Shown in pieces: positions 18,590-43,566 of a stretch of DNA of 43,816 nucleotides (position 1 is its first letter; the number at the start of each line of letters is the position of its first letter). The stretch covers positions 1 through 43,816 of the forward strand of contig WRGQ01000169.1 in the NCBI GenBank assembly GCA_009787115.1, given 5' to 3'. This DNA comes from Bacteroidota bacterium (GTDB taxonomy: Bacteria > Bacteroidota > Bacteroidia > Bacteroidales > WCHB1-69). The notes beneath the pieces are model-generated. The model saw only the letters and a program-made list of their open reading frames with translations, made no database searches and had not been told where the DNA came from. The position numbers and the translations under genes are program-made.

Positions 18590-18671
18590 TTGGCGCTCCC
18601 ACAAAAGCACGCTAATCGTAAATAAATAATTAAAACACAGAAATTTATAAAACATTAAAATAGACATTATT

Positions 18672-19608
18672 ATGAAAACATTAAAATTGTCATTAATCTG
18701 TTTATTACTATTATTTGTTTGCCGAAATACGTATGCACAATATATACCATCTATTGAAGTTTTATTGATAAATGATGTTGAAGGTTCTGATTCAAATATG
18801 CTGAATTTAAGAAATGGAGATGCTTACGATTTTTACAATAATTTGCGCACATGGATACCCTATTGTAATTCGGAACCATTAAAAAATCCTCCTATAACCT
18901 ATATTGAGATCGCTTTTCATGTATTTCTTGACAATAACGGAGAACATAATGTATATACAAATACACAAGAAGGAAAAGATAAACTTCTAACCGATTATTA
19001 TAACGGCATTATTGAAAACGAGGAACTGTTGCAGGAAACAATAAATTATCACAATGAAATATTGGCAGTTACGAATTATATGGAAGAAATAAGTCGGAGC
19101 GCTTTATTTAGCCGCAAAAGCGATAGCCTGATAGATCTCAATCAAATTAGAGATTGGTATGACGAAATCTATACTTTAAACGCAAAATATTCGTTGGCAG
19201 AAACCTACTACCAACTTGGCAAATTTGAAGAAGGCTTTAAGACTTTGGCATTAATTCCGAAAAAATACAATTTGAATGAAGATGAGATGATGAGACGATT
19301 AGATGATGAGGTGATTAACGATGAAGAAAATCTTACGGTCTTACAATCTTCCGGTCTTCCGGTCTCAGACAATATTACTCTTATACCCACCCCCACCACC
19401 GGCGAACTACAAATATTAGGGAGCAATAAACAATTAATAATGAAAAACGTTGAGGTATTCGATGGTTATGGTAAAAAGTTATTATCGCATACCGCAGACC
19501 ATACACCGCACACCGTATTAGACATTTCCCATCTTGCATCTGGATTGTATTTTATAAAAATAAAAACCGAAAACAGGCGAAGTAGTTAAGAAAGTAGTGA
19601 AACAGTAA
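18672..19608 (+). pseudogene. Decayed T9SS cargo gene: signal peptide, metalloprotease-like N-terminal fragment without HExxH, and T9SS CTD with a terminal frameshift
   Basis: The ORF 18672-19589 ends ...IKIKTENRRSS*. Skipping A19575 gives ...TENGEVVKKVVKQ* (stop 19606-19608), a canonical last strand of a T9SS CTD. The N-terminal part (IEIAFHVFLDNNGEHN) resembles the start of secreted Zn-protease domains, but there is no HExxH anywhere. An octamer repeat array sits at the joint. Confidence 0.5.
19332..19363. repeat. Octamer tandem repeat CTTACGGT CTTACAAT CTTCCGGT CTTCCGGT
   Basis: Four 8-nt units lie inside the ORF and are translated as LTVLQSSGLPV. The 10-mer CTTACGGTCT recurs at 43571-43580. 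Confidence 0.85.
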
Positions 19609-20167: not shown

Positions 20168-20313
20168 GTTTAAGATTTAAAATTTAAAGTTTAATGTTTA
20201 AAGTTCAATGTTCAATGTTTAAAATTCAAAAATCAAATCATCTCATCCACACATCATCTAATCATCTAATCATCATATCTGCTTTCTGCTTTCTGTTTTC
20301 TGCCTTCTCCTTT
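20168..20313. repeat. 146-nt mosaic of tandem heptamers and octamers (GTTTAAA/GTTCAAT family, CATCTAAT, CTGCTTT family)
   Basis: At least 10 consecutive 7-nt units at 20168-20237. CATCTAAT x2 plus CATCATAT at 20255-20278. CTGCTTT CTGCTTT CTGTTTT CTGCCTT CTCCTTT at 20279-20313. Confidence 0.95.
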
Positions 20314-20772
20314 TTTTCCGGCTCTGCGCAATCCAAATTCGGACACGCCGACTACACCGGTATTCTTTCCAATATGTCAGGGATTGATTCTATCCAAAAA
20401 GTTTTGGCTAATTATGTTGCCGACCTGCAAACTATCGGGGAACAAATGGAAAAAGAATTTGTAGAAAAACAAACAGCGCTAGAACAAATGGTCAATGCCG
20501 GTAACACCTCGCAGGCAATATTAAAAATAAAAGAAGATGAATTGAAGGCTATGTATAAACGTATTATGGATTTCAAACAATCTGCCGACGCCGATATTCA
20601 GGATAAACAGGTGGAATTGTTAGAACCTTATCAGAATAAACTCTCTGATGCCATTAAGAAAGTAGCCAAAGCCAATAACTATAATTATGTTTTCGATATC
20701 TCTGTCTTGTTGTTTTATGCCCCGGGCGATGACCTGACCAATAAAGTGAAAGCAGAATTAGATATTAAATAA
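20194..20772 (+). CDS. ompH: OmpH/Skp-family periplasmic chaperone (copy 3), with N-terminus and signal peptide encoded by the repeat mosaic
   Basis: 192 aa. The mature part aligns with copy 2 (KFGHADY.. vs KYGHVNSY.., ..NYNYVFD.. vs ..KYNYIFD..). The first ~45 aa (MFKVQCSMFKIQKSNHLIHTSSNHLIIISAFCFLFSAFSFFSGSAQ) are read from repeats. Start could be ATG 20194 or ATG 20215. Confidence 0.75.
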   Translation: MFKVQCSMFKIQKSNHLIHTSSNHLIIISAFCFLFSAFSFFSGSAQSKFGHADYTGILSNMSGIDSIQKVLANYVADLQTIGEQMEKEFVEKQTALEQMVNAGNTSQAILKIKEDELKAMYKRIMDFKQSADADIQDKQVELLEPYQNKLSDAIKKVAKANNYNYVFDISVLLFYAPGDDLTNKVKAELDIK

Positions 20773-22638: not shown

Positions 22639-23742
22639 ATGAATTGCCATCCTAATCACGACAAACGCATTGTTGTTACTTTAGATGCCGGCGGCACAAA
22701 CTTTGTTTTTGGCGCTATTCAAGATTATCAATTTATTGTAACACCTGTTACAAAACCATCAAATTCAGATGTTCTAGAAAAATGTTTGAACACTTTGACG
22801 GAAGGGTTTACAGAGGTAATCAATCAGTTGCCGGAGCCTCCGGTGGCTATCAGTTTTGCTTTTCCAGGTCCCGCAGACTATCCCAATGGCATTATTGGTG
22901 GCTACCTGCCCAACTTCCCCTCTTTCAGAAATGGAGTAGCCTTAGCCGATTTCTTACAGGAAAAATTGAAACTGCCCGTTTTTATTAACAACGATGCAGA
23001 CCTCTTTACCTACGGCGAAGCAATTGCAGGCGTTTTGCCCGAAATTAATCAAAGATTAGAAAATTTGGGTAGCGCAAAACGCTACCGAAATCTCATCGGT
23101 TTTACTTTTGGAACAGGCTTTGGGTTCGGAATCTCCGTGAACGGCAAAATGTATGTGGGAGACAATAGTTGCTCCGAAATCTTCTGTTTACCACACAAAC
23201 ATCTGCAAAACATTATTGCAGAAGATGGCGTTTCTATTCGTGCGGTGAAAAGGGTGTATGGAGAATTAGCCGGTGACCCTGCGCATAGTTTAGAACCGTT
23301 TGATATTTACCAGATTGCAGAAGGTGTCAAAATTGGAAATCGCGAAGCCGCACAAAAGGCATTTGCGCTTATGGGCGAAGTCGCAGGAAATGTTATCGCC
23401 ATTTGTGCCTCTTTGTTAGATGGACTTATCGTCATTGGGGGTGGACTCACCAAAGCGGAAAAATATTTTATGCCTGCATTGCTCAAAGAGATGCGCAGCA
23501 ACTTCTCAACCATTTCGGGAGAAACGGTGGCGCGTGTGCAAAGTAATGTCTATGACCTGCAAAACGACGAGGAGTTCCTGCAATTTGCCAAAGGCAATCA
23601 GCAACCCCTCAAAGTTTTTGGCTCTGAAAAAGAAGTAATTTACGACCCGCAGAAAAGAATAGGCATCACTATCTCAAAATTAGGAGCAGACGTTGCCACC
23701 TCGCTCGGTGCCTACGCATTTGCGGTGAGCGGTATGCGGTGA
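22639..23742 (+). CDS. ROK-family sugar kinase/regulator-like protein
   Basis: 367 aa. N-terminal ATP-binding LDAGGTNFVFG. DADLFTYGE and GTGFGFG motifs typical of ROK/glucokinase-type ASKHA proteins. The last 7 codons and stop lie in a GCGGTGA array. Confidence 0.65.
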   Translation: MNCHPNHDKRIVVTLDAGGTNFVFGAIQDYQFIVTPVTKPSNSDVLEKCLNTLTEGFTEVINQLPEPPVAISFAFPGPADYPNGIIGGYLPNFPSFRNGVALADFLQEKLKLPVFINNDADLFTYGEAIAGVLPEINQRLENLGSAKRYRNLIGFTFGTGFGFGISVNGKMYVGDNSCSEIFCLPHKHLQNIIAEDGVSIRAVKRVYGELAGDPAHSLEPFDIYQIAEGVKIGNREAAQKAFALMGEVAGNVIAICASLLDGLIVIGGGLTKAEKYFMPALLKEMRSNFSTISGETVARVQSNVYDLQNDEEFLQFAKGNQQPLKVFGSEKEVIYDPQKRIGITISKLGADVATSLGAYAFAVSGMR

Positions 23743-23789
23743 GATGATTAGATGATGACCTATTAACCCTTTAACCCTTTAACCCCTAA
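23722..23789. repeat. Composite repeat: GCGGTGA GCGGTAT GCGGTGA, then GATGATTAGATGATGA (reverse complement of the CATCTAAT array), then CCTATTAA CCCTTTAA CCCTTTAA CCCCTAA
   Basis: Read directly. Spans the ROK 3' end and stop (TGA 23740-23742) up to the rfbC ATG (23790). The TAA triplets of the octamers fall in all three + frames. Confidence 0.95.
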
Positions 23790-28810: not shown

Positions 28811-28854
28811 CTCACATCATCTAATCATCTAATCATCTAATCACTTGTCTCACG
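28811..28854. repeat. CTCACAT, then CATCTAAT x3, then CACTTGT CTCACG
   Basis: Three perfect 8-nt units at 28818-28841, in the convergent spacer between the hypothetical gene and tsaB. TAA falls in all three + frames. Confidence 0.95.
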
Positions 28855-29552: not shown

Positions 29553-29597
29553 TGTTTAAGTGTTAAGTTTATTCCTAATTCGTAATTCGTTATGTTT
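29553..29597. repeat. TGTTTAAG TGTTAAG TTTATTC CTAATTC GTAATTC GTTATGT array
   Basis: Fills the whole hutH-tsaB spacer. The TAATTCG/CGTAATT unit is the same family as 40951-40978. Confidence 0.8.
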
Positions 29598-33655: not shown

Positions 33656-35518
<1,863 letters not shown>

Positions 35519-39278: not shown

Positions 39279-41000
39279 TTATGGCGCCCGCAGCAGAATA
39301 TCCTCCTCAACATCCCAAAACCCTCTGATATTTATATCTTTCTCAATAAGGAAAATCTTTTCAGGTTGCTCTTTTTTGTGATAGTCTCCGGTGTCCCATT
39401 TACCGTTTTTATTTCTATCTTCTACAACCTTAATACGATAAGCGCCGGGCAAAAGATGCTTGTATTCTATTGTTCTGGAAGATGATATTACTTCGTTGAA
39501 TATTACTTTCTGATTTGATGAGAGCAATTCCACAAGAAAATCGGCATCGTTATCCGCATCAACTTTATAATGAATGATTAAATTCCCGTAATATTTTTCT
39601 GTTTTCTTTGAAAATGAAAACATTACAGTATCATTCGTAGCGCCGTCATAGCCATAAAACAGAGAATCCCGAAACCATAATGTATAGTTAATTTTAGGTT
39701 CAAATTTAAAAGGCACGGGAATCTGCATAACAAAATCGTCCGGAATATTTACAAAGACCGATGTCGTATCTTTTCCTGTAAAAAGTGTAGCAATAACCAA
39801 CATTTTGGCGCTGTCCGCCGGCTTTACCGGATAGGAGAAATTAAGTAGCGTTGGTGCGTACAAGTCCTCTTTATTTGTCAGATTGATATTTAGTTTTGTC
39901 GCAACAGGTTTGGTGGCTTTCCCTGCGCTACGCGGGATTTGATAAGGCTGCAGTTCTACAGTATCGGTTTTTGCAGTATCGGTTTGAATATAAACCATTG
40001 CGGAATCCTTAAAAAATGTTTTTAAATACAAAGAGATTGTATCGCTTGTTGCATTAATTTTTGAGAAGAAATCTATAATGGTGTCGCTTTCTACTTGTAA
40101 ATCAAAAGAATGTATGGGGATTTTATATGGAAAACGATATACGCCCTTTTGGGAATTAATATAAGGGTCAAGCAATTGCACCGTATCGGCTTCCTGAAAC
40201 AGACGTAAGGTTATAGATGCTTCCGTATCTGCATGAAATAATGAATCGGTTTCATAATATTTGGCTTGAAACGTGCTGTCTGCAAAGGCAATAAGTTCAT
40301 TAGGCAGATTGTATTTCAAATCGGAATTAATATCTTTCAGTGCAAATATTTTGTAGTTTTTTTGTTTTAGATGATGAAAAAAGAAATCTCCTTGAGCATT
40401 GGTTTTGGTTAAGTAATTTGGACGTGTTGTAAGAGGGAGGGAATCAATATCTTCTTCGTACAACATCACAAAAACGCCTGCTTCCGGTTTGCCGGTTTCC
40501 GCATTTACAACCCTTCCGAAAAGTTTATGACCGTCAATAGAGTCTCCCGTAGAAAATGCAAAATTGTACCCCGATAACTTGTTCCCTTCGTGATAATCCT
40601 GAATACAATCCGAAAATAAAAGATTATAAGTGGTATTACTTCTTAGCGTATCGTTAAATTTTACCAGCACGGATTTTCCTTGTGTGGTATAATCCACACG
40701 CTTATCCATAGGTGGCGAAAAAATAACATTTTCGTTAGGATTATTTAATGTAACAAATTCATCGAAAGTGATTTTAATGATTTTTCCGTTAAAATTTGCG
40801 CTACCGTTTTCAGGTTTTTCGCCAACAACTTGTGGGGGGGTAGTATCTTTGGGACCTCCGGAGGGGAGTACTTGCCGGGCGCATCCGGAAAGGAGTATGA
40901 AGAAGGCAGAAAACAGAATGCAGAAAGCAGAATACAACGTGTAGTTTGTTCGTAATTTGTAATTTGTAATTCGTAATTTATTTGGGATGTGGGTAGTCAT
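39279..41000 (-). CDS. Ig-like (Big_5/SbsA-type) domain lipoprotein, with signal peptide encoded by repeat modules
   Basis: 573 aa. Lipobox LLSGC followed by GGPKDTTPPQVVGEKPENGSANFNGKIIKITFDEFV, typical of Bacteroidota Ig-like lipoproteins. The single ATG at 41000 sits 19 nt from a -7 box. The first ~38 codons are read from heptamer arrays. Confidence 0.75.
   Translation of the reverse strand: MTTHIPNKLRITNYKLRTNYTLYSAFCILFSAFFILLSGCARQVLPSGGPKDTTPPQVVGEKPENGSANFNGKIIKITFDEFVTLNNPNENVIFSPPMDKRVDYTTQGKSVLVKFNDTLRSNTTYNLLFSDCIQDYHEGNKLSGYNFAFSTGDSIDGHKLFGRVVNAETGKPEAGVFVMLYEEDIDSLPLTTRPNYLTKTNAQGDFFFHHLKQKNYKIFALKDINSDLKYNLPNELIAFADSTFQAKYYETDSLFHADTEASITLRLFQEADTVQLLDPYINSQKGVYRFPYKIPIHSFDLQVESDTIIDFFSKINATSDTISLYLKTFFKDSAMVYIQTDTAKTDTVELQPYQIPRSAGKATKPVATKLNINLTNKEDLYAPTLLNFSYPVKPADSAKMLVIATLFTGKDTTSVFVNIPDDFVMQIPVPFKFEPKINYTLWFRDSLFYGYDGATNDTVMFSFSKKTEKYYGNLIIHYKVDADNDADFLVELLSSNQKVIFNEVISSSRTIEYKHLLPGAYRIKVVEDRNKNGKWDTGDYHKKEQPEKIFLIEKDINIRGFWDVEEDILLRAP
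40902..40978. repeat. CTGCTTT-family module (40902-40936, read on -) and AATTACG/AATTACA x4 array (40951-40978, read on -)
   Basis: The - strand reads AATTACG AATTACA AATTACA AATTACG ... ATTCTGCTTTCTGCATTCTGTTTTCTGCCTTCT. A 33-nt stretch is 31/33 identical to 20278-20310. Confidence 0.95.
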
Positions 41001-41019: not shown

Positions 41020-41027
41020 CAAAAGTA
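41020..41027 (-). promoter_or_regulatory. Candidate -7 box (TACTTTTG on - strand) for the Ig-like lipoprotein gene
   Basis: The + strand reads CAAAAGTA, 19 nt upstream of the ATG at 41000. Confidence 0.4.
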
Positions 41028-41150: not shown

Positions 41151-42449
41151 ATGAAACCCAAACTCTTCTGCTCATTTCTTCTGCTCATTTCGTTCTTTTG
41201 TGCAAAGACACAAACCTTAACTTTGGCAGATTGTGTGCAGCAAGCGCTTGAATCGAACTACGGCATTCAAATCGCGAAAAATTCGGAAAACATCAGTCGC
41301 GTGAATTTGAAAAGTTACAGTGTTTTTTTGCCTGTTATCTATGGAGATGCAAATTACAGAAGTAGTTACAATAATTCTAAAATAGAAAGAGTGAACGGAG
41401 AGATTATTGAATTTCATAATTCAAATGCTTTAAATGACGGGGCAAGCCTCAACATGAACTGGCGCATTTTCGACGGTCTCTCTATGTTTTTTACCAACTC
41501 TAAAAATAAAGTATTGTTAGATATCAGCACGTTGAATACGGTTTTGGAAATTGAACAACTTATTGCAAATGTGAGCGCTGCATACTATAATGTGTGGATT
41601 CAAACCAAACTCTTAGAAGCCACAGAAAATATTGTGGATATTTCAATGCAACGTTTCAATATTGCCAATAGCAAATACCAAATCGGCGCGATTTCAGGAT
41701 TGGAGTATCGCCAAAGCAAGATTGACCTGAATGCCGATAGTTCACAACTTATGCTTCAAAAACAGGCGCTTACCAATGCCTATATCTCTTTAAATACTTT
41801 AATGAACAGAGATTTAACCAAAGAAAATTATGTGCAGGATACTTTAACGCTGATGCCGCTGTTCAATTATAACCAAATTGTGGACAGCGCTTTGCAAAAT
41901 AATAGTTCGTTGTTAATCTACCAAAAAGGGATCAGATTGTCGCAGATGGAGGTGAAAAACAGTTTGTCTCAGTTTTTCCCCTCTATTGATTTTACTACTG
42001 GATATCAGTATTCCAATGCCTTAACCCCTGCATCGGTTACCTCTATTCAAAGTATGTCGCACGGATTTTACTGGGGATTAACGGCGCGCATTCCTATTTT
42101 TAGCCGCATGGAAAATTTGCGCAATAACAAAGTCGCAAAGTATCAACTGCAAAATGCGGAATTGCAATATAAAGACGTTGAACTTAGTGTGTTAAGCGCA
42201 TTGGCAGAACTCTACAATGTCTATAAAAATAATCATGTTCTATTGGAATTTGAAATGGAAAATGTTGAGATTACCTCTGAAACTTTGGAGATTGCCCTCG
42301 AAAAATATCGCATCGGCTCGCTGTCGGGGGTAGAGTTTAGAGAGTTTCAACGTTCCTATATTGAAGCCGTTAAACGATTAATGAATGCCTCTTATCAAGC
42401 AAAAGTATCTGAAATAGGATTACAGTTGTTAAGCGGAAAATTAAAATAA
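41151..42449 (+). CDS. tolC: TolC-family outer membrane efflux protein
   Basis: 432 aa. Signal peptide. LTLADCVQQALESNYGIQIA start and two OEP repeats typical of TolC-like proteins. Confidence 0.85.
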   Translation: MKPKLFCSFLLLISFFCAKTQTLTLADCVQQALESNYGIQIAKNSENISRVNLKSYSVFLPVIYGDANYRSSYNNSKIERVNGEIIEFHNSNALNDGASLNMNWRIFDGLSMFFTNSKNKVLLDISTLNTVLEIEQLIANVSAAYYNVWIQTKLLEATENIVDISMQRFNIANSKYQIGAISGLEYRQSKIDLNADSSQLMLQKQALTNAYISLNTLMNRDLTKENYVQDTLTLMPLFNYNQIVDSALQNNSSLLIYQKGIRLSQMEVKNSLSQFFPSIDFTTGYQYSNALTPASVTSIQSMSHGFYWGLTARIPIFSRMENLRNNKVAKYQLQNAELQYKDVELSVLSALAELYNVYKNNHVLLEFEMENVEITSETLEIALEKYRIGSLSGVEFREFQRSYIEAVKRLMNASYQAKVSEIGLQLLSGKLK

Positions 42450-42457
42450 AAACCATT

Positions 42458-43516
42458 ATGAACCTTAAAAGAATTATTTACATTTCGCTTCCCATTTTAG
42501 CCGTGCTTGTTTTTGTTGGATATAAAGTGTTCTTTTCCAAAAGCAAACAAACAGAGGAAGAACAAAAGCCAAAAGGCGGTGGGGCTATCTCTGCCAAACT
42601 CTATGTGGTAGAACCCAACCTGTTAAGCAACGGCATTAATGCTGTGGGAACGCTTCTGCCCAACGAAGAGGTGGAACTGATCAGCGAAGCCGCCGGAAAA
42701 GTGGTAGGGATATTTTTCGACGAAGGCACAACGGTTACAGCCGGACAACTTTTACTGAAAGTTGATGATTCTGAACTGCAAGCGCAATTGAAACGCGCAG
42801 AATATCAACTGGCTCTCTCTGGAGAACGTTTGAACCGCCAAAAAATTCTGTTGGAAAAAGACGCTGTGAGCCGCGAAGAATTTGATCAGGTGCAAACCGA
42901 CTATAATATCCTGCAAACCGATATTGACCTGTTGAAAACGAAGATTGCCAAAACGGAAATCAGAGCGCCCTTTGCAGGTACTATCGGTTTCCGCGGCATA
43001 AGTTTGGGCAGTTATTTACAACTTAATACTATCATTGCAAGGTTGATAGACCAGAACAAACTGAAATTGGAGTTTTCCATTCCCGAAAAATATGCCTCTA
43101 TCTGTTTTACCGGAAATAAAATAAAGTTTCGCACCGAACTCTCTCCCGACGAATTTGAAGCCCTTGTGTATGCCGTTGACCCGAAAGTGGATGCGGCTAC
43201 CCGAACGATAACGGTAAGAGGAATTTACAATAATGCCAACCGAAAACTGTTAGCCGGTATGTTTGCCCGTATCAACCTCATTATCAACCAATCTAATGAA
43301 GTGATTTTGATACCTACCGAATCTATTGTTCAAGAAATGGAAGGCAAAAAAGTGTGGGTAGTTTCCAACGGAAAAGCCTTTTCTAAATCTATCACCACAG
43401 GTTTCCGCAGCAACAATCAGGTGGAAGTAGTAACCGGTTTGCAAATGGGCGATACTATTATGGTTACGGGGTTGATGCAGGTGAGGGAAGGAATTGCGGT
43501 GAACGGTGAGCGGTGA
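42458..43516 (+). CDS. Efflux transporter periplasmic adaptor subunit (MFP/HlyD family)
   Basis: 352 aa. N-terminal TM anchor. Lipoyl-like hairpin (AGKVVGIFFDEGTTVTAGQLLLKVDD ... IRAPFAGTIG). Coiled-coil. Beta-barrel. The last codons and stop lie in a GCGGTGA array. Confidence 0.85.
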   Translation: MNLKRIIYISLPILAVLVFVGYKVFFSKSKQTEEEQKPKGGGAISAKLYVVEPNLLSNGINAVGTLLPNEEVELISEAAGKVVGIFFDEGTTVTAGQLLLKVDDSELQAQLKRAEYQLALSGERLNRQKILLEKDAVSREEFDQVQTDYNILQTDIDLLKTKIAKTEIRAPFAGTIGFRGISLGSYLQLNTIIARLIDQNKLKLEFSIPEKYASICFTGNKIKFRTELSPDEFEALVYAVDPKVDAATRTITVRGIYNNANRKLLAGMFARINLIINQSNEVILIPTESIVQEMEGKKVWVVSNGKAFSKSITTGFRSNNQVEVVTGLQMGDTIMVTGLMQVREGIAVNGER

Positions 43517-43566
43517 GCGGTGGAAATTTAAAATTTTAATGATTAATGATTAATGATTAATGATAA
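43496..43566. repeat. GCGGTGA ACGGTGA GCGGTGA GCGGTGG, a spacer, then ATGATTA x3 plus ATGATAA
   Basis: Read directly. The adaptor stop TGA (43514-43516) is inside the third unit. TGA of the ATGATTA array falls in all three + frames. Confidence 0.95.

What the first reader, a model, noticed from the sequence alone, without database searches (positions are those of the whole stretch)
40902..40978. Near-identical 33-nt repeat module encodes the signal-peptide hydrophobic core of two unrelated exported proteins
On the - strand, 40933-40901 reads TCTGCTTTCTGCATTCTGTTTTCTGCCTTCTTC. On the + strand, 20278-20310 reads TCTGCTTTCTGCTTTCTGTTTTCTGCCTTCTCC. That is 31/33 identical. Both are translated in the same frame. 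The result is SAFCILFSAFFILLSGC in the Ig-like lipoprotein, where it runs into the lipobox Cys. In the third OmpH/Skp paralog the result is SAFCFLFSAFSFFSGSAQ, where it runs into an AxA-like cleavage site. In both genes the basic n-region upstream is also read from a different heptamer or octamer array: NKLRITNYKLRTNY from AATTACG/A, and MFKVQCSMFKIQKSNHLIHTSSNHL from GTTCAAT/CATCTAAT. The lipoprotein has only one possible ATG (41000), 19 nt downstream of a TAnnTTTG box, so the repeat-encoded leader is very likely translated. This looks like a portable, repeat-derived export-signal cassette, or at least repeated exaptation of the same module as a signal peptide.
Basis: partly seen in the sequence, partly recalled or inferred. 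Interest (0 to 1): 0.75.

Follow-up and report, generated by a model that had tools for sequence, protein, structure and literature searches.

The report
Heptamer DNA repeats encoding signal peptides
The "33-nt module" is a short tandem array of the 7-base unit TCTGCTT, and in this bacterial family (Lentimicrobiaceae) such 7- and 8-base arrays appear to be translated as the export signals of several unrelated secreted proteins; this is unusual, though Neisseria opa genes are a precedent.

Summary
The lipoprotein copy lies at 40931-40899(-), 2 nt from the stated coordinates, and matches 20278-20310(+) at 31/33.

The 33-mer is not a discrete cassette. It is a degenerate (TCTGCTT)~4.7 heptamer array. 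Homology stops at the array edges. Unrelated TCTGCTT arrays from other metagenomes match just as well (30-31/33).

The window holds about 15 arrays of period 7 or 8, and the same units recur at several loci. Because 7 is coprime to 3, TCTGCTT reads SAFCFLL in every frame. That peptide is in the top 2.4% of stop-free heptamers for hydropathy.

Among Lentimicrobiaceae orthologs, 15/40 lipoprotein and 27/79 OmpH3 leaders carry this motif. None of 37 distant homologs does. Both families also share n-region repeat motifs (YKLQVT, SSHHLII, KVQS).

Leaders turn over fast: 58% DNA identity against 92% for the mature part. An in-frame ATG was present upstream in all 9 loci examined.

Perfect (TCTGCTT)≥3 arrays also form the hydrophobic core in GldD, FKBP, T4SS-pilin and T9SS-cargo leaders elsewhere.

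Verdict: repeated recruitment of the same repeat unit is supported. A portable cassette is not. Translation is inferred, not shown. The closest analogue is the Neisseria opa CTCTT leader repeat. This is a new variant of a known kind.

The parts
20278..20313 (+). Degenerate (TCTGCTT) x5.1 heptamer array. It encodes SAFCFLFSAFSF, the hydrophobic core of the OmpH3 leader.
   Evidence: TRF period 7, 82% matches; translation; 30/33 to a perfect array.
40899..40931 (-). Degenerate (TCTGCTT) x4.7 heptamer array. It encodes SAFCILFSAFF, the hydrophobic core of the lipoprotein leader. Coordinates corrected by 2 nt.
   Evidence: TRF rows at 40897-40936.
40881..40898 (-). Non-repeat c-region ATA CTC CTT TCC GGA TGC = ILLSGC. 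The lipobox is LSGC, with Cys at residue 40 of the ATG-41000 form.
   Evidence: An LL(A/S)(S/G)C-A(R/K) motif is conserved in orthologs.
40952..40979 (-). (AATTACA/G) x4 heptamer array. It encodes KLRITNYKLR, the basic n-region, if translation starts at ATG 41000.
   Evidence: TRF. The same unit recurs at 29574-29594 and upstream of an unrelated gene in L235.
41020..41027 (-). TACTTTTG, which matches the Bacteroidetes -7 promoter consensus TAnnTTTG. It lies 19 nt upstream of ATG 41000.
   Evidence: The box and ATGACTACC are conserved in L240, and the box is also present in L241 and L244. Promoter function is inferred from the known consensus.
39279..41000 (-). Big_5/DUF2141 Ig-like lipoprotein gene. 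The 573-aa form starts at ATG 41000; a 552-aa alternative starts at TTG 40937.
20168..20230 (+). Mosaic of (GTTTAAA)/(GTTCAAT)/(TTCAAAA) heptamers starting right after the OmpH2 stop. The candidate start codons ATG 20194 and ATG 20215 lie inside these repeat units.
   Evidence: TRF. The same array type sits at the same place in L242, L243 and L246.
20253..20274 (+). (ATCATCTA) x2.8 octamer array. It encodes SSNHLII, part of the OmpH3 n-region.
   Evidence: TRF, 100% matches. The same unit is at 4 window loci against 0.1 expected.
20194..20772 (+). Third OmpH/Skp paralog (OmpH3). The mature part starts at the conserved (S/A)A|QSKFGH.
41164..41196 (+). 13-nt tandem repeat (TCTTCTGCTCATT x2.5) encoding LFCSFLLLISFF. 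This is the hydrophobic core of the TolC-like (OEP) protein leader, a third repeat-built leader in the window.
   Evidence: TRF.
28816..28843 (+). Non-coding (ATCATCTA) x3.5 array between two convergent genes. It is an example of the intergenic pool that uses the same units.
43496..43564 (+). (GCGGTGA) x3.9, overlapping and supplying the TGA stop of the HlyD-like gene, followed by (TTAATGA) x4.1 in the spacer. Another example of the array pool at gene boundaries.

Best explanation
The two 33-mers are degenerate tandem arrays of one heptanucleotide, TCTGCTT.

This Lentimicrobiaceae genome, like its relatives, carries many short tandem arrays of 7- and 8-nt units at gene boundaries. They draw on a small recurring set of units.

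When a stop-free array lies between the start codon and the signal-peptidase site of an exported protein, it is translated. Because 7 and 8 are coprime to 3, an array gives the same periodic peptide in all three frames.
- The pyrimidine-rich TCTGCTT gives SAFCFLL, which serves as the hydrophobic core.
- A-rich units (AATTACA, GTTCAAA, ATCATCTA) give K/R/N/H/Q-rich n-regions and can even supply the ATG.
- Only the last few codons stay non-repeat and conserved: the lipobox LSGC, and SGSA|Q.

Signal peptides are cleaved off and need only charge, hydrophobicity and a cleavage site. Arrays could therefore replace the ancestral MKK-type leader, and they turn over quickly by slippage or unequal exchange. 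Selection keeps the ATG in frame and keeps a hydrophobic unit in the core position.

The 31/33 identity between the two genes comes mainly from both using the same unit, not from a mobile cassette.

Shown: the anatomy, the recurrence, the turnover and the preserved frame. Inferred: translation, export function, and how the arrays arise and spread.
For: - Array nature: TRF period 7; 30/33 and 29/33 to a perfect array.
- Excess of arrays: 6 strict period-7 arrays against 0 in shuffles. There are 15 TRF arrays of period 7 or 8 in 43.8 kb, and these periods also dominate in L244 and L245. Units recur: ATCATCTA at 4 loci against 0.1 expected, and GCGGTGA at 2.
- Frame independence and hydropathy: SAFCFLL in all frames, mean Kyte-Doolittle hydropathy (KD) 2.39, rank 38 of 1612 stop-free heptamers. 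The reverse complement gives the hydrophilic KQKAESR.
- Spread across the clade: motif in 15/40 and 27/79 orthologs against 0/26 and 0/11 distant homologs (Fisher p = 2e-4 and 0.03). Leaders are about 10 aa longer. Six leader motifs occur in both families.
- DNA of orthologs shows the arrays directly.
- Translation: the mature OmpH and the lipobox Cys need a leader, and the array is the only hydrophobic segment. All 9 loci examined have an in-frame ATG upstream with an open frame. The promoter box and ATGACTACC are conserved upstream of the arrays. The best 12-residue hydrophobic window scores KD 2.68-2.93, equal to the non-repeat leaders of OmpH1 and OmpH2, and the n-regions carry net charge +2 to +4.
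- Turnover: leader DNA identity is 58% against 92% for the mature part, window versus L240.
- Other families: GldD, T4SS pilin, T9SS-CTD protein, FKBP.
- No cassette: no flank homology.
Against: - No experimental start site is available and no SignalP or LipoP run was possible.
- With ATG 41000 the lipobox Cys is residue 40, later than the usual 15-35. With TTG 40937 the n-region has no charge. So whether the n-region array is translated in this gene is uncertain.
- The two window copies share the same order of variant units (TCTGTTT then TCTGCCT). Copy B matches copy A (31/33) better than any of 120 unrelated arrays (maximum 30/33). Some exchange within the genome is therefore not excluded.
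Only 18 low-GC arrays were classified, and 5 of those are convincing leaders.
- Why the same few units recur is not explained by slippage alone.
Confidence: 0.72

Rival explanations
1. Portable cassette or gene conversion. A specific 33-nt (or longer) export-signal module was copied recently between the two genes, or from a third locus, by recombination or a mobile element.
For: - Identity is 31/33, with the same order of variant units.
- Copy B matches copy A better than any of 120 unrelated arrays (maximum 30/33).
- The same leader motifs occur in both gene families across the clade.
Against: - Homology ends at the array: the local alignment is 31 nt and the flanks score like shuffles.
- Copy A matches 10 unrelated arrays equally well at 31/33.
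- The OmpH3 array resembles its own orthologs' arrays, 31/33 to L242, including the shared TCTGCCTTCTCCTT tail. This points to vertical descent at that locus.
- No inverted repeats, duplications or common flanks were seen around arrays.
Confidence: 0.12
2. Phase-variation switch of the opa type. The non-triplet repeats in the leader change copy number at high frequency and switch the exported proteins on and off.
For: - A non-triplet repeat lies in the leader-coding region, as with CTCTT in Neisseria opa (PMC3960869, PMC3899988).
- Orthologs differ in array length.
- Some relatives have longer perfect tracts, such as CATCTCAT x4 in L242 and TTCAATCC x6 in L246.
Against: - The window arrays are degenerate, with at most 2 perfect units in a row.
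- Three independent assemblies are 100% identical across the locus: the window, SRR5247074 and SRR9983640.
- All 9 loci examined are in frame, so no OFF allele was seen.
- Targets include housekeeping proteins (Skp/OmpH, GldD, FKBP) rather than surface antigens.
Confidence: 0.08
3. Element acting mainly at the RNA level. The arrays act in the mRNA as unstructured, protein-binding platforms (for example for cold-shock or S1-type proteins) that tune translation initiation. Being translated is incidental, and the n-region arrays may lie in the 5' UTR.
For: - MacGregor 2015 proposes this role for TAACTGA heptamer repeats upstream of start codons in Beggiatoaceae, Cyanobacteria and five Bacteroidetes. 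That paper notes that CspB binds one T-rich heptamer per protein (PMC4679880).
- The leader mRNAs here are less structured than shuffles: z = +0.48 and +1.68, with 193 of 200 shuffles folding at least as well for OmpH3.
- Arrays of the same units also occur in clearly non-coding spacers.
- One gene caller placed the lipoprotein start at TTG 40937, after the n-region array.
Against: - The h-region array must be translated, because no other hydrophobic segment precedes the cleavage site.
- In L240, L241 and L242 there is no in-frame ATG, GTG or TTG between the n-region arrays and the core.
- This role cannot explain why core-position units are specifically hydrophobic-coding.
- The idea is compatible with the main explanation rather than exclusive of it.
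Confidence: 0.06
4. Chance or codon-usage convergence of two ordinary signal peptides.
For: - Signal-peptide cores are rich in L, F, S, A and C, and these use T/C-rich codons.
Against: - The 31-mer has 0 chance matches in 100 shuffles.
- There is clear 7-nt periodicity at the DNA level.
- Distant homologs have ordinary non-repeat leaders.
Confidence: 0.02

Closest known systems
Neisseria opa (P.II) CTCTT pentamer coding repeat in the leader peptide
   Same: Both are pyrimidine-rich tandem repeats whose unit length is not a multiple of 3. Both sit in the signal-peptide-coding 5' end of an exported protein and read as hydrophobic residues in every frame (PMC3960869, PMC3899988; the frame-independence of CTCTT is my own knowledge).
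   Different: - The opa tracts are long, perfect and experimentally phase-variable at about 1e-3 per generation, and they are confined to surface adhesins.
- Here the unit is 7 nt and the tracts are short and degenerate.
- Three assemblies are identical.
- The n-region is also repeat-built.
- The targets are housekeeping periplasmic or outer-membrane proteins across a whole family of bacteria.
Heptanucleotide tandem-repeat arrays: cyanobacterial STRR, and TAACTGA repeats of Beggiatoaceae, Cyanobacteria and Bacteroidetes (MacGregor 2015, PMC4679880)
   Same: - Tandem 7-nt units occur at many loci per genome.
- The same unit recurs at unrelated genes.
- They cluster at gene boundaries and often just upstream of start codons.
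- Different heptamer arrays abut one another.
- Indels come in 7-nt steps.
- They are present in some Bacteroidetes. My scan found TTCTGNN arrays in many phyla.
   Different: - Those arrays are described as non-coding. TAACTGA contains stops in the forward orientation, and a translational-regulator binding role is proposed.
- Here stop-free units lie inside the ORF and supply the n- and h-regions of signal peptides.
- The units differ: TCTGCTT, AATTACA, ATCATCTA and others.
- STRR is cited from my own knowledge; my literature search for it found nothing.
Long simple sequence repeats in prokaryotes; heptameric repeats noted as over-represented (PMC4692102 abstract; Mrazek et al. 2007 as cited in PMC4679880)
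   Same: This is the general class: tandem repeats with units of about 5-11 nt, sporadically abundant in some bacterial lineages.
   Different: The papers found and read here report no link to export signals.
Haemophilus influenzae tetranucleotide repeats near 5' ends of ORFs (lic1; PMC3899988)
   Same: A non-triplet repeat lies within the first codons of an ORF.
   Different: Those repeats act as frameshift switches. They do not build the functional hydrophobic core of a leader.

Membership tests
Heptanucleotide tandem-repeat arrays (STRR / TAACTGA-type) | Head-to-tail copies of a 7-nt unit, at least 3 copies | tested here: met
   TRF gives period 7 with 5.1 copies at 20278-20313 and 4.0 copies at 40952-40979, among others. 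There are 6 strict period-7 arrays against 0 in shuffles.
Heptanucleotide tandem-repeat arrays (STRR / TAACTGA-type) | The same unit recurs at several unrelated loci of one genome | tested here: met
   TCTGCTT at 2 leader loci, ATCATCTA at 4 loci (0.1 expected), GCGGTGA at 2, and AATTACG at 2-3.
Heptanucleotide tandem-repeat arrays (STRR / TAACTGA-type) | Located at gene boundaries or intergenic spacers, with different arrays abutting | tested here: met
   Example: GCGGTGA then TTAATGA at 43496-43564. The OmpH3 5' end carries four array types in a row.
Heptanucleotide tandem-repeat arrays (STRR / TAACTGA-type) | Non-coding (as described for the family) | tested here: not met
   The focal arrays lie inside ORFs, downstream of a conserved in-frame ATG, and provide the only hydrophobic leader segment.
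Phase-variable coding repeat (opa-type contingency locus) | Non-triplet repeat inside the 5' leader-coding region | tested here: met
Phase-variable coding repeat (opa-type contingency locus) | Long perfect tract prone to slippage | tested here: not met
   At most 2 identical units are adjacent in either window copy.
Phase-variable coding repeat (opa-type contingency locus) | Copy-number polymorphism among isolates or within populations, with ON and OFF frames | tested here: inconclusive
   Three independent assemblies are identical and all 9 loci are in frame. Consensus assemblies cannot reveal minority variants, and reads were not available.
Sec signal peptide cleaved by signal peptidase I (OmpH3) | Positively charged n-region, hydrophobic core of 10 or more residues, small residues at -1 and -3 | tested here: met
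   Net charge is +2 or +3. The best 12-residue hydrophobic window scores KD 2.68, the same as OmpH1 and OmpH2. With cleavage as ...SGSA|QSKFGH, residues -1 and -3 are A and G, read directly from the sequence under the Bacteroidetes N-terminal-Q pattern (my own knowledge). itself scored a cut after Q, giving S and Q at -3 and -1. The junction is conserved in 79 orthologs. This is a rule-based check only; SignalP was not available.
Lipoprotein signal peptide (signal peptidase II) | Lipobox [LVI][ASTVI][GAS]C after a hydrophobic core | tested here: met
   LSGC, with Cys conserved in orthologs.
Lipoprotein signal peptide (signal peptidase II) | Cys within about the first 15-35 residues, plus a K or R near the N-terminus (PROSITE-style rule, from my own knowledge) | tested here: inconclusive
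   The ATG 41000 form has Cys at residue 40 and charge +4. The TTG 40937 form has Cys at residue 19 and charge 0. Each start fails one criterion.
Mobile cassette or miniature transposable element | Homology extending beyond the repeat, terminal inverted repeats, or target duplications | tested here: not met
   The local alignment is confined to 31 nt. For the upstream and downstream 100 nt, 189/200 and 89/200 shuffles respectively score at least as well.

The most novel reading that the evidence does not exclude
Lentimicrobiaceae, and perhaps other low-GC Bacteroidota, may have an active, sequence-specific process that seeds and homogenises a small set of 7- and 8-nt arrays at gene boundaries. 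The agent could be a repeat-binding or repeat-propagating factor, or frequent recombination between loci. The cell would then use these arrays as frame-independent, interchangeable building blocks for export signals. The arrays could also act as heritable tuners or switches of translation and export for part of the envelope proteome.
Probability: 0.2. Interest if true: 0.8.

Novelty: new variant of a known kind. Interest (0 to 1): 0.6.

Why it matters
Signal peptides are known to tolerate great sequence variety, but little is known about how new ones arise. Here a whole bacterial family appears to have replaced ordinary MKK-type leaders of housekeeping envelope proteins with translated micro-repeat arrays. 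Those proteins include Skp/OmpH and an Ig-like lipoprotein; GldD, FKBP and pilin show the same in other low-GC contigs. The arrays draw on a shared pool of units.

If confirmed, this gives three things:
- A natural experiment on the minimal requirements of Sec and lipoprotein signals.
- An example of non-coding simple repeats being recruited into coding sequence. The coprime unit length helps, because it makes the peptide independent of the reading frame.
- A possible function, or at least a fate, for the unexplained heptamer repeats seen in Cyanobacteria, Beggiatoaceae and Bacteroidetes.

There is also a practical point. Gene callers disagree on the starts of these genes: 552 against 573 aa here, and calls starting at MPSGG... 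or MAQSKF... that drop the leader entirely. Export predictions for such genomes will be systematically wrong.

Tried and rejected
- **Genome-contig scan** with TCTGNNTTCTGNNTTCTGNNTTCT. It returned TTCTGNN arrays from many phyla and said nothing about enrichment in Lentimicrobiaceae. It was useful only as a side observation.
It returned only short spurious ORFs over long arrays (Neolewinella, a Gammaproteobacterium, Aeromonas). It did not recover real leaders.
- **Representative-library phmmer with the 46-aa OmpH3 leader**. It gave 0 hits at E <= 0.001. The query is short and low-complexity, so this is uninformative.
- **ORF classification of arrays in high-GC contigs**. Rejected as unreliable, because long spurious ORFs abound there. 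Only the 18 low-GC arrays were used.
- **"Truncated" ortholog calls as possible frameshifted OFF alleles** (MPSGG..., MAQSKF...). Rejected: the DNA shows intact in-frame leaders, so these are gene-caller artefacts.
- **Concerted-evolution test** (within-genome against between-genome array similarity). I could not pair the two genes from another single genome.
- **Rfam**: no match in the window.
- **RNA folding**: no stable structure.
- **Extended homology around the 33-mer**: none. The shared TTTCCGG is at chance level.
- **Literature searches** for Lentimicrobium plus tandem repeats, and for STRR plus heptanucleotide, found nothing relevant.
Full report
**1. The observation**

Both sequences are present. 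20278-20310(+) reads TCTGCTTTCTGCTTTCTGTTTTCTGCCTTCTCC. The lipoprotein copy reads TCTGCTTTCTGCATTCTGTTTTCTGCCTTCTTC and lies at 40931-40899(-), 2 nt from the stated coordinates. They match at 31/33. A 31-mer search allowing 3 mismatches finds only these two sites, with none in 100 shuffles.

Both are read in the same frame. They give SAFCFLFSAFS in ORF 20194-20772 (Pfam OmpH) and SAFCILFSAFF in ORF 39279-41000(-) (Pfam Big_5 and DUF2141).

The upstream repeat arrays, the single in-frame ATG at 41000, and the TACTTTTG box 19 nt upstream of it are all as described. An in-frame TTG at 40937 is an alternative start. One gene caller used it (552 aa) and another used the ATG (573 aa).

**2. What the 33-mer is**

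It is a degenerate tandem array of the heptamer TCTGCTT: TCTGCTT TCTGC(T/A)T TCTGTTT TCTGCCT TCT.. (TRF period 7). The two copies match a perfect array at 30/33 and 29/33.

The window is full of such arrays. TRF lists 15 with period 7 or 8, and a strict count gives 6 period-7 arrays against 0 in shuffles.

The units recur at several loci:
- ATCATCTA sits at 4 loci (0.1 expected). These are the OmpH3 leader, a spacer between convergent genes, after a stop codon, and inside a T9SS-cargo ORF.
- GCGGTGA sits at the 3' ends of two ORFs.
- AATTACG sits at 2-3 loci.

Arrays of period 7 and 8 also dominate in related contigs L244 and L245. NCBI names for the nearest named homologs are Lentimicrobiaceae bacterium and Bacteroidales bacterium.

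**3. Why a heptamer can write a signal peptide**

Seven is coprime to three, so three units make seven codons and all three frames give the same cyclic peptide. TCTGCTT gives SAFCFLL. Its mean Kyte-Doolittle hydropathy (KD) is 2.39, rank 38 of 1612 stop-free heptamer necklaces (top 2.4%). Its reverse complement gives the hydrophilic KQKAESR.

The A-rich units give polar or basic peptides: AATTACA gives NYKLQIT and GTTCAAT gives VQCSMFN. GTTCAAT repeats also contain ATG, and both candidate OmpH3 start codons lie inside such units.

**4. Comparison with relatives**

*Lipoprotein orthologs (54-90% identity).*
- Leaders have a median of 28 residues. Of 40, 15 carry a rotation of SAFCFLL at >=6/7.
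- Homologs at 43-47% identity have ordinary leaders of about 19 residues, and 0/26 carry the motif.

*OmpH3 orthologs.* 27/79 carry the motif against 0/11 distant homologs.

*Shared motifs.* Both families also share YKLQVT, SSHHLII, KVQS, HTAYR and LLFSF. At least one such motif is present in 19/40 and 55/79 leaders, against 0/26 distant lipoprotein homologs.

*Ortholog DNA.* It shows the arrays directly:
- L241 has (AAAGTTC)n followed by TCTGCTT x5.7.
- L242 has AAAGTTC, then CATCTCAT x4, then TCTGCTT x5.7.
- L243, L245 and L246 show the same kind of layout.
- L249 and L250 use TCTCCTT-type units.

*Turnover.* Between the window and its closest ortholog (L240, 90% aa identity), the leader is 58% identical at the DNA level and differs in length. 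The next 600 nt are 92% identical, and the TACTTTTG box and ATGACTACC upstream are conserved.

*Reading frame.* Every one of the 9 loci examined keeps an in-frame ATG upstream of the arrays and an open frame to the mature protein. This includes three whose database proteins had been called without a leader.

**5. Other protein families**

I scanned JGI metagenomes for perfect (TCTGCTT)x3. Most hits are in high-GC contigs of other phyla and look non-coding.

Of the 18 low-GC arrays, 8 sit in sense orientation within the first 60 codons of a long ORF. One is antisense, one is internal and 8 are intergenic.

Five of the 8 are convincing leaders:
- GldD lipoprotein: ...FLLSAFCFLLFSC
- T4SS pilin: MKKLLKNKILLFFCFLLSAFYFLSEANA
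- T9SS-CTD protein: MKKIIYFFAFCFLLSAFSLSAQ
- FKBP lipoprotein: MIRYFLLSAFCFLLSC
- an unassigned protein: MKKQHIIKSSLLLSAFCFLPFWASAQ

L235 also has (AATTACG)x6 just upstream. That is the unit which forms the n-region of the window lipoprotein.

**6. Is it a portable cassette?**

The evidence is against a discrete module.
- The best local alignment between the two loci is the 31-nt array itself. For the upstream and downstream 100 nt, 189/200 and 89/200 shuffles respectively score at least as well.
- Copy A matches 10 of 120 unrelated arrays at 31/33 and 27 more at 30/33. Copy B reaches a maximum of 30/33.
- The OmpH3 array matches its ortholog in L242 at 31/33, and the two share the TCTGCCTTCTCCTT tail. 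This suggests vertical descent at that locus.

The shared TCTGTTT-TCTGCCT order in the two window copies is a small excess. It leaves limited room for exchange within the genome. I could not test this further, because I could not pair both genes from another single genome.

**7. Function**

The array-encoded cores are as hydrophobic as the non-repeat leaders of OmpH1 and OmpH2 in the same window: best 12-residue window KD 2.68-2.93 against 2.64-2.69. The n-regions carry net charge +2 to +4. The c-regions are a lipobox (LSGC) and SGSA|Q. These are rule-based checks, because SignalP was not available.

For the lipoprotein, the ATG start puts the Cys at residue 40, which is late. The TTG start leaves no charge. 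Translation of that n-region array is therefore less certain than translation of the core.

The leader mRNAs are less structured than shuffles (z = +0.48 and +1.68), and Rfam finds nothing. This is compatible with an added RNA-level benefit or role, as MacGregor proposed for TAACTGA heptamer repeats upstream of start codons in Beggiatoaceae, Cyanobacteria and five Bacteroidetes (PMC4679880).

Phase variation of the opa type (PMC3960869, PMC3899988) is unlikely here.
- The tracts are degenerate.
- Three independent assemblies are identical.
- No out-of-frame allele was seen.
- The targets are housekeeping proteins.

Read-level data would be needed to exclude it.

**8. Comparison with what is known, and novelty**

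Two known things meet here. One is the heptanucleotide tandem-repeat arrays of some bacterial lineages, described as non-coding. The other is the Neisseria opa CTCTT repeat, a non-triplet pyrimidine repeat that encodes the leader's hydrophobic core.

My searches of the held literature turned up no description of the combination seen here. That combination has four features:
- 7- and 8-nt arrays build both the n- and h-regions.
- They do so in several unrelated housekeeping exported proteins.
- They do so across a bacterial family.
- They draw on a shared set of units and turn over rapidly.

I rate it a new variant of a known kind, with interest about 0.6. How the same units come to recur at many loci remains unexplained.

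Noticed in passing
window 19281-19515 (ORF 18672-19589, +): A T9SS-cargo ORF (Por_Secre_tail at residues 239-303) contains three internal arrays: GATGAGAT x4.4, TCTTACGG x4.4 and CGCACAC x4.3. They translate as EDEMMRRLDDEV, NLTVLQSSGLPVS and SHTADHTPHTV. The last lies inside the C-terminal sorting domain. So 7/8-nt arrays are also read through in mature protein regions.
   Followed up: partly
window 23722-23742 and 43496-43523: GCGGTGA arrays overlap the 3' ends of two unrelated ORFs (22639-23742 and 42458-43516) and supply their TGA stop codons. Each is followed by a different array (GATGATTA-type at 23741-23756; TTAATGA x4.1 at 43536-43564).
   Followed up: partly
window 41164-41196: The TolC-like (OEP) protein leader MKPKLFCSFLLLISFFCA is encoded by a 13-nt tandem repeat (TCTTCTGCTCATT x2.5). 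The unit length is again coprime to 3, and the unit contains TTCTGCT.
   Followed up: partly
L001-L119 (genome-contig scan): Tandem heptamer arrays of the form TTCTGNN (TTCTGAC, TTCTGAA, TTCTGCC, TTCTGTC, TTCTGGC, TTCTGGT and others) occur in MAGs of many phyla: Cyanobacteria, Acidobacteriota, Planctomycetota, Verrucomicrobiota, Bacteroidota, Desulfobacterota, Nitrospirota, Omnitrophota and Chloroflexota. Blocks of different units often abut (L008, L027, L034, L066). Some form inverted pairs around a GC-rich hairpin (L077, L102, L114). The shared TTCTG core across phyla is unexplained.
   Followed up: no
window 39279-41000 (-); P0008, P0009, P0031, P0135, P0155 and others: Gene callers disagree on the starts of repeat-led genes. 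This gene is called at 552 or 573 aa. About 20% of database orthologs are called from an internal Met, which drops the whole leader, although the DNA has an intact in-frame leader (checked for L244, L245 and L246).
   Followed up: yes
window 35079-35126 (ORF 33656-35518, -): (TGT)16 encodes a run of 16 glutamines in the ORF on the minus strand.
   Followed up: partly
L245 11400-11600: A 200-nt intergenic block between a histidyl-tRNA synthetase gene and a SpoU methylase gene is made of three abutting arrays: TAGTGAT x5, AGGTGTAT x4.9 and TAATTCT x15.7. This is the largest array block seen in a Lentimicrobiaceae relative.
   Followed up: no
window 18622-18696: A 25-26-nt tandem repeat (about 2.6 copies, AT-rich) spans the spacer upstream of the T9SS-cargo ORF and its first codons (MKTLKL...).
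   Followed up: no
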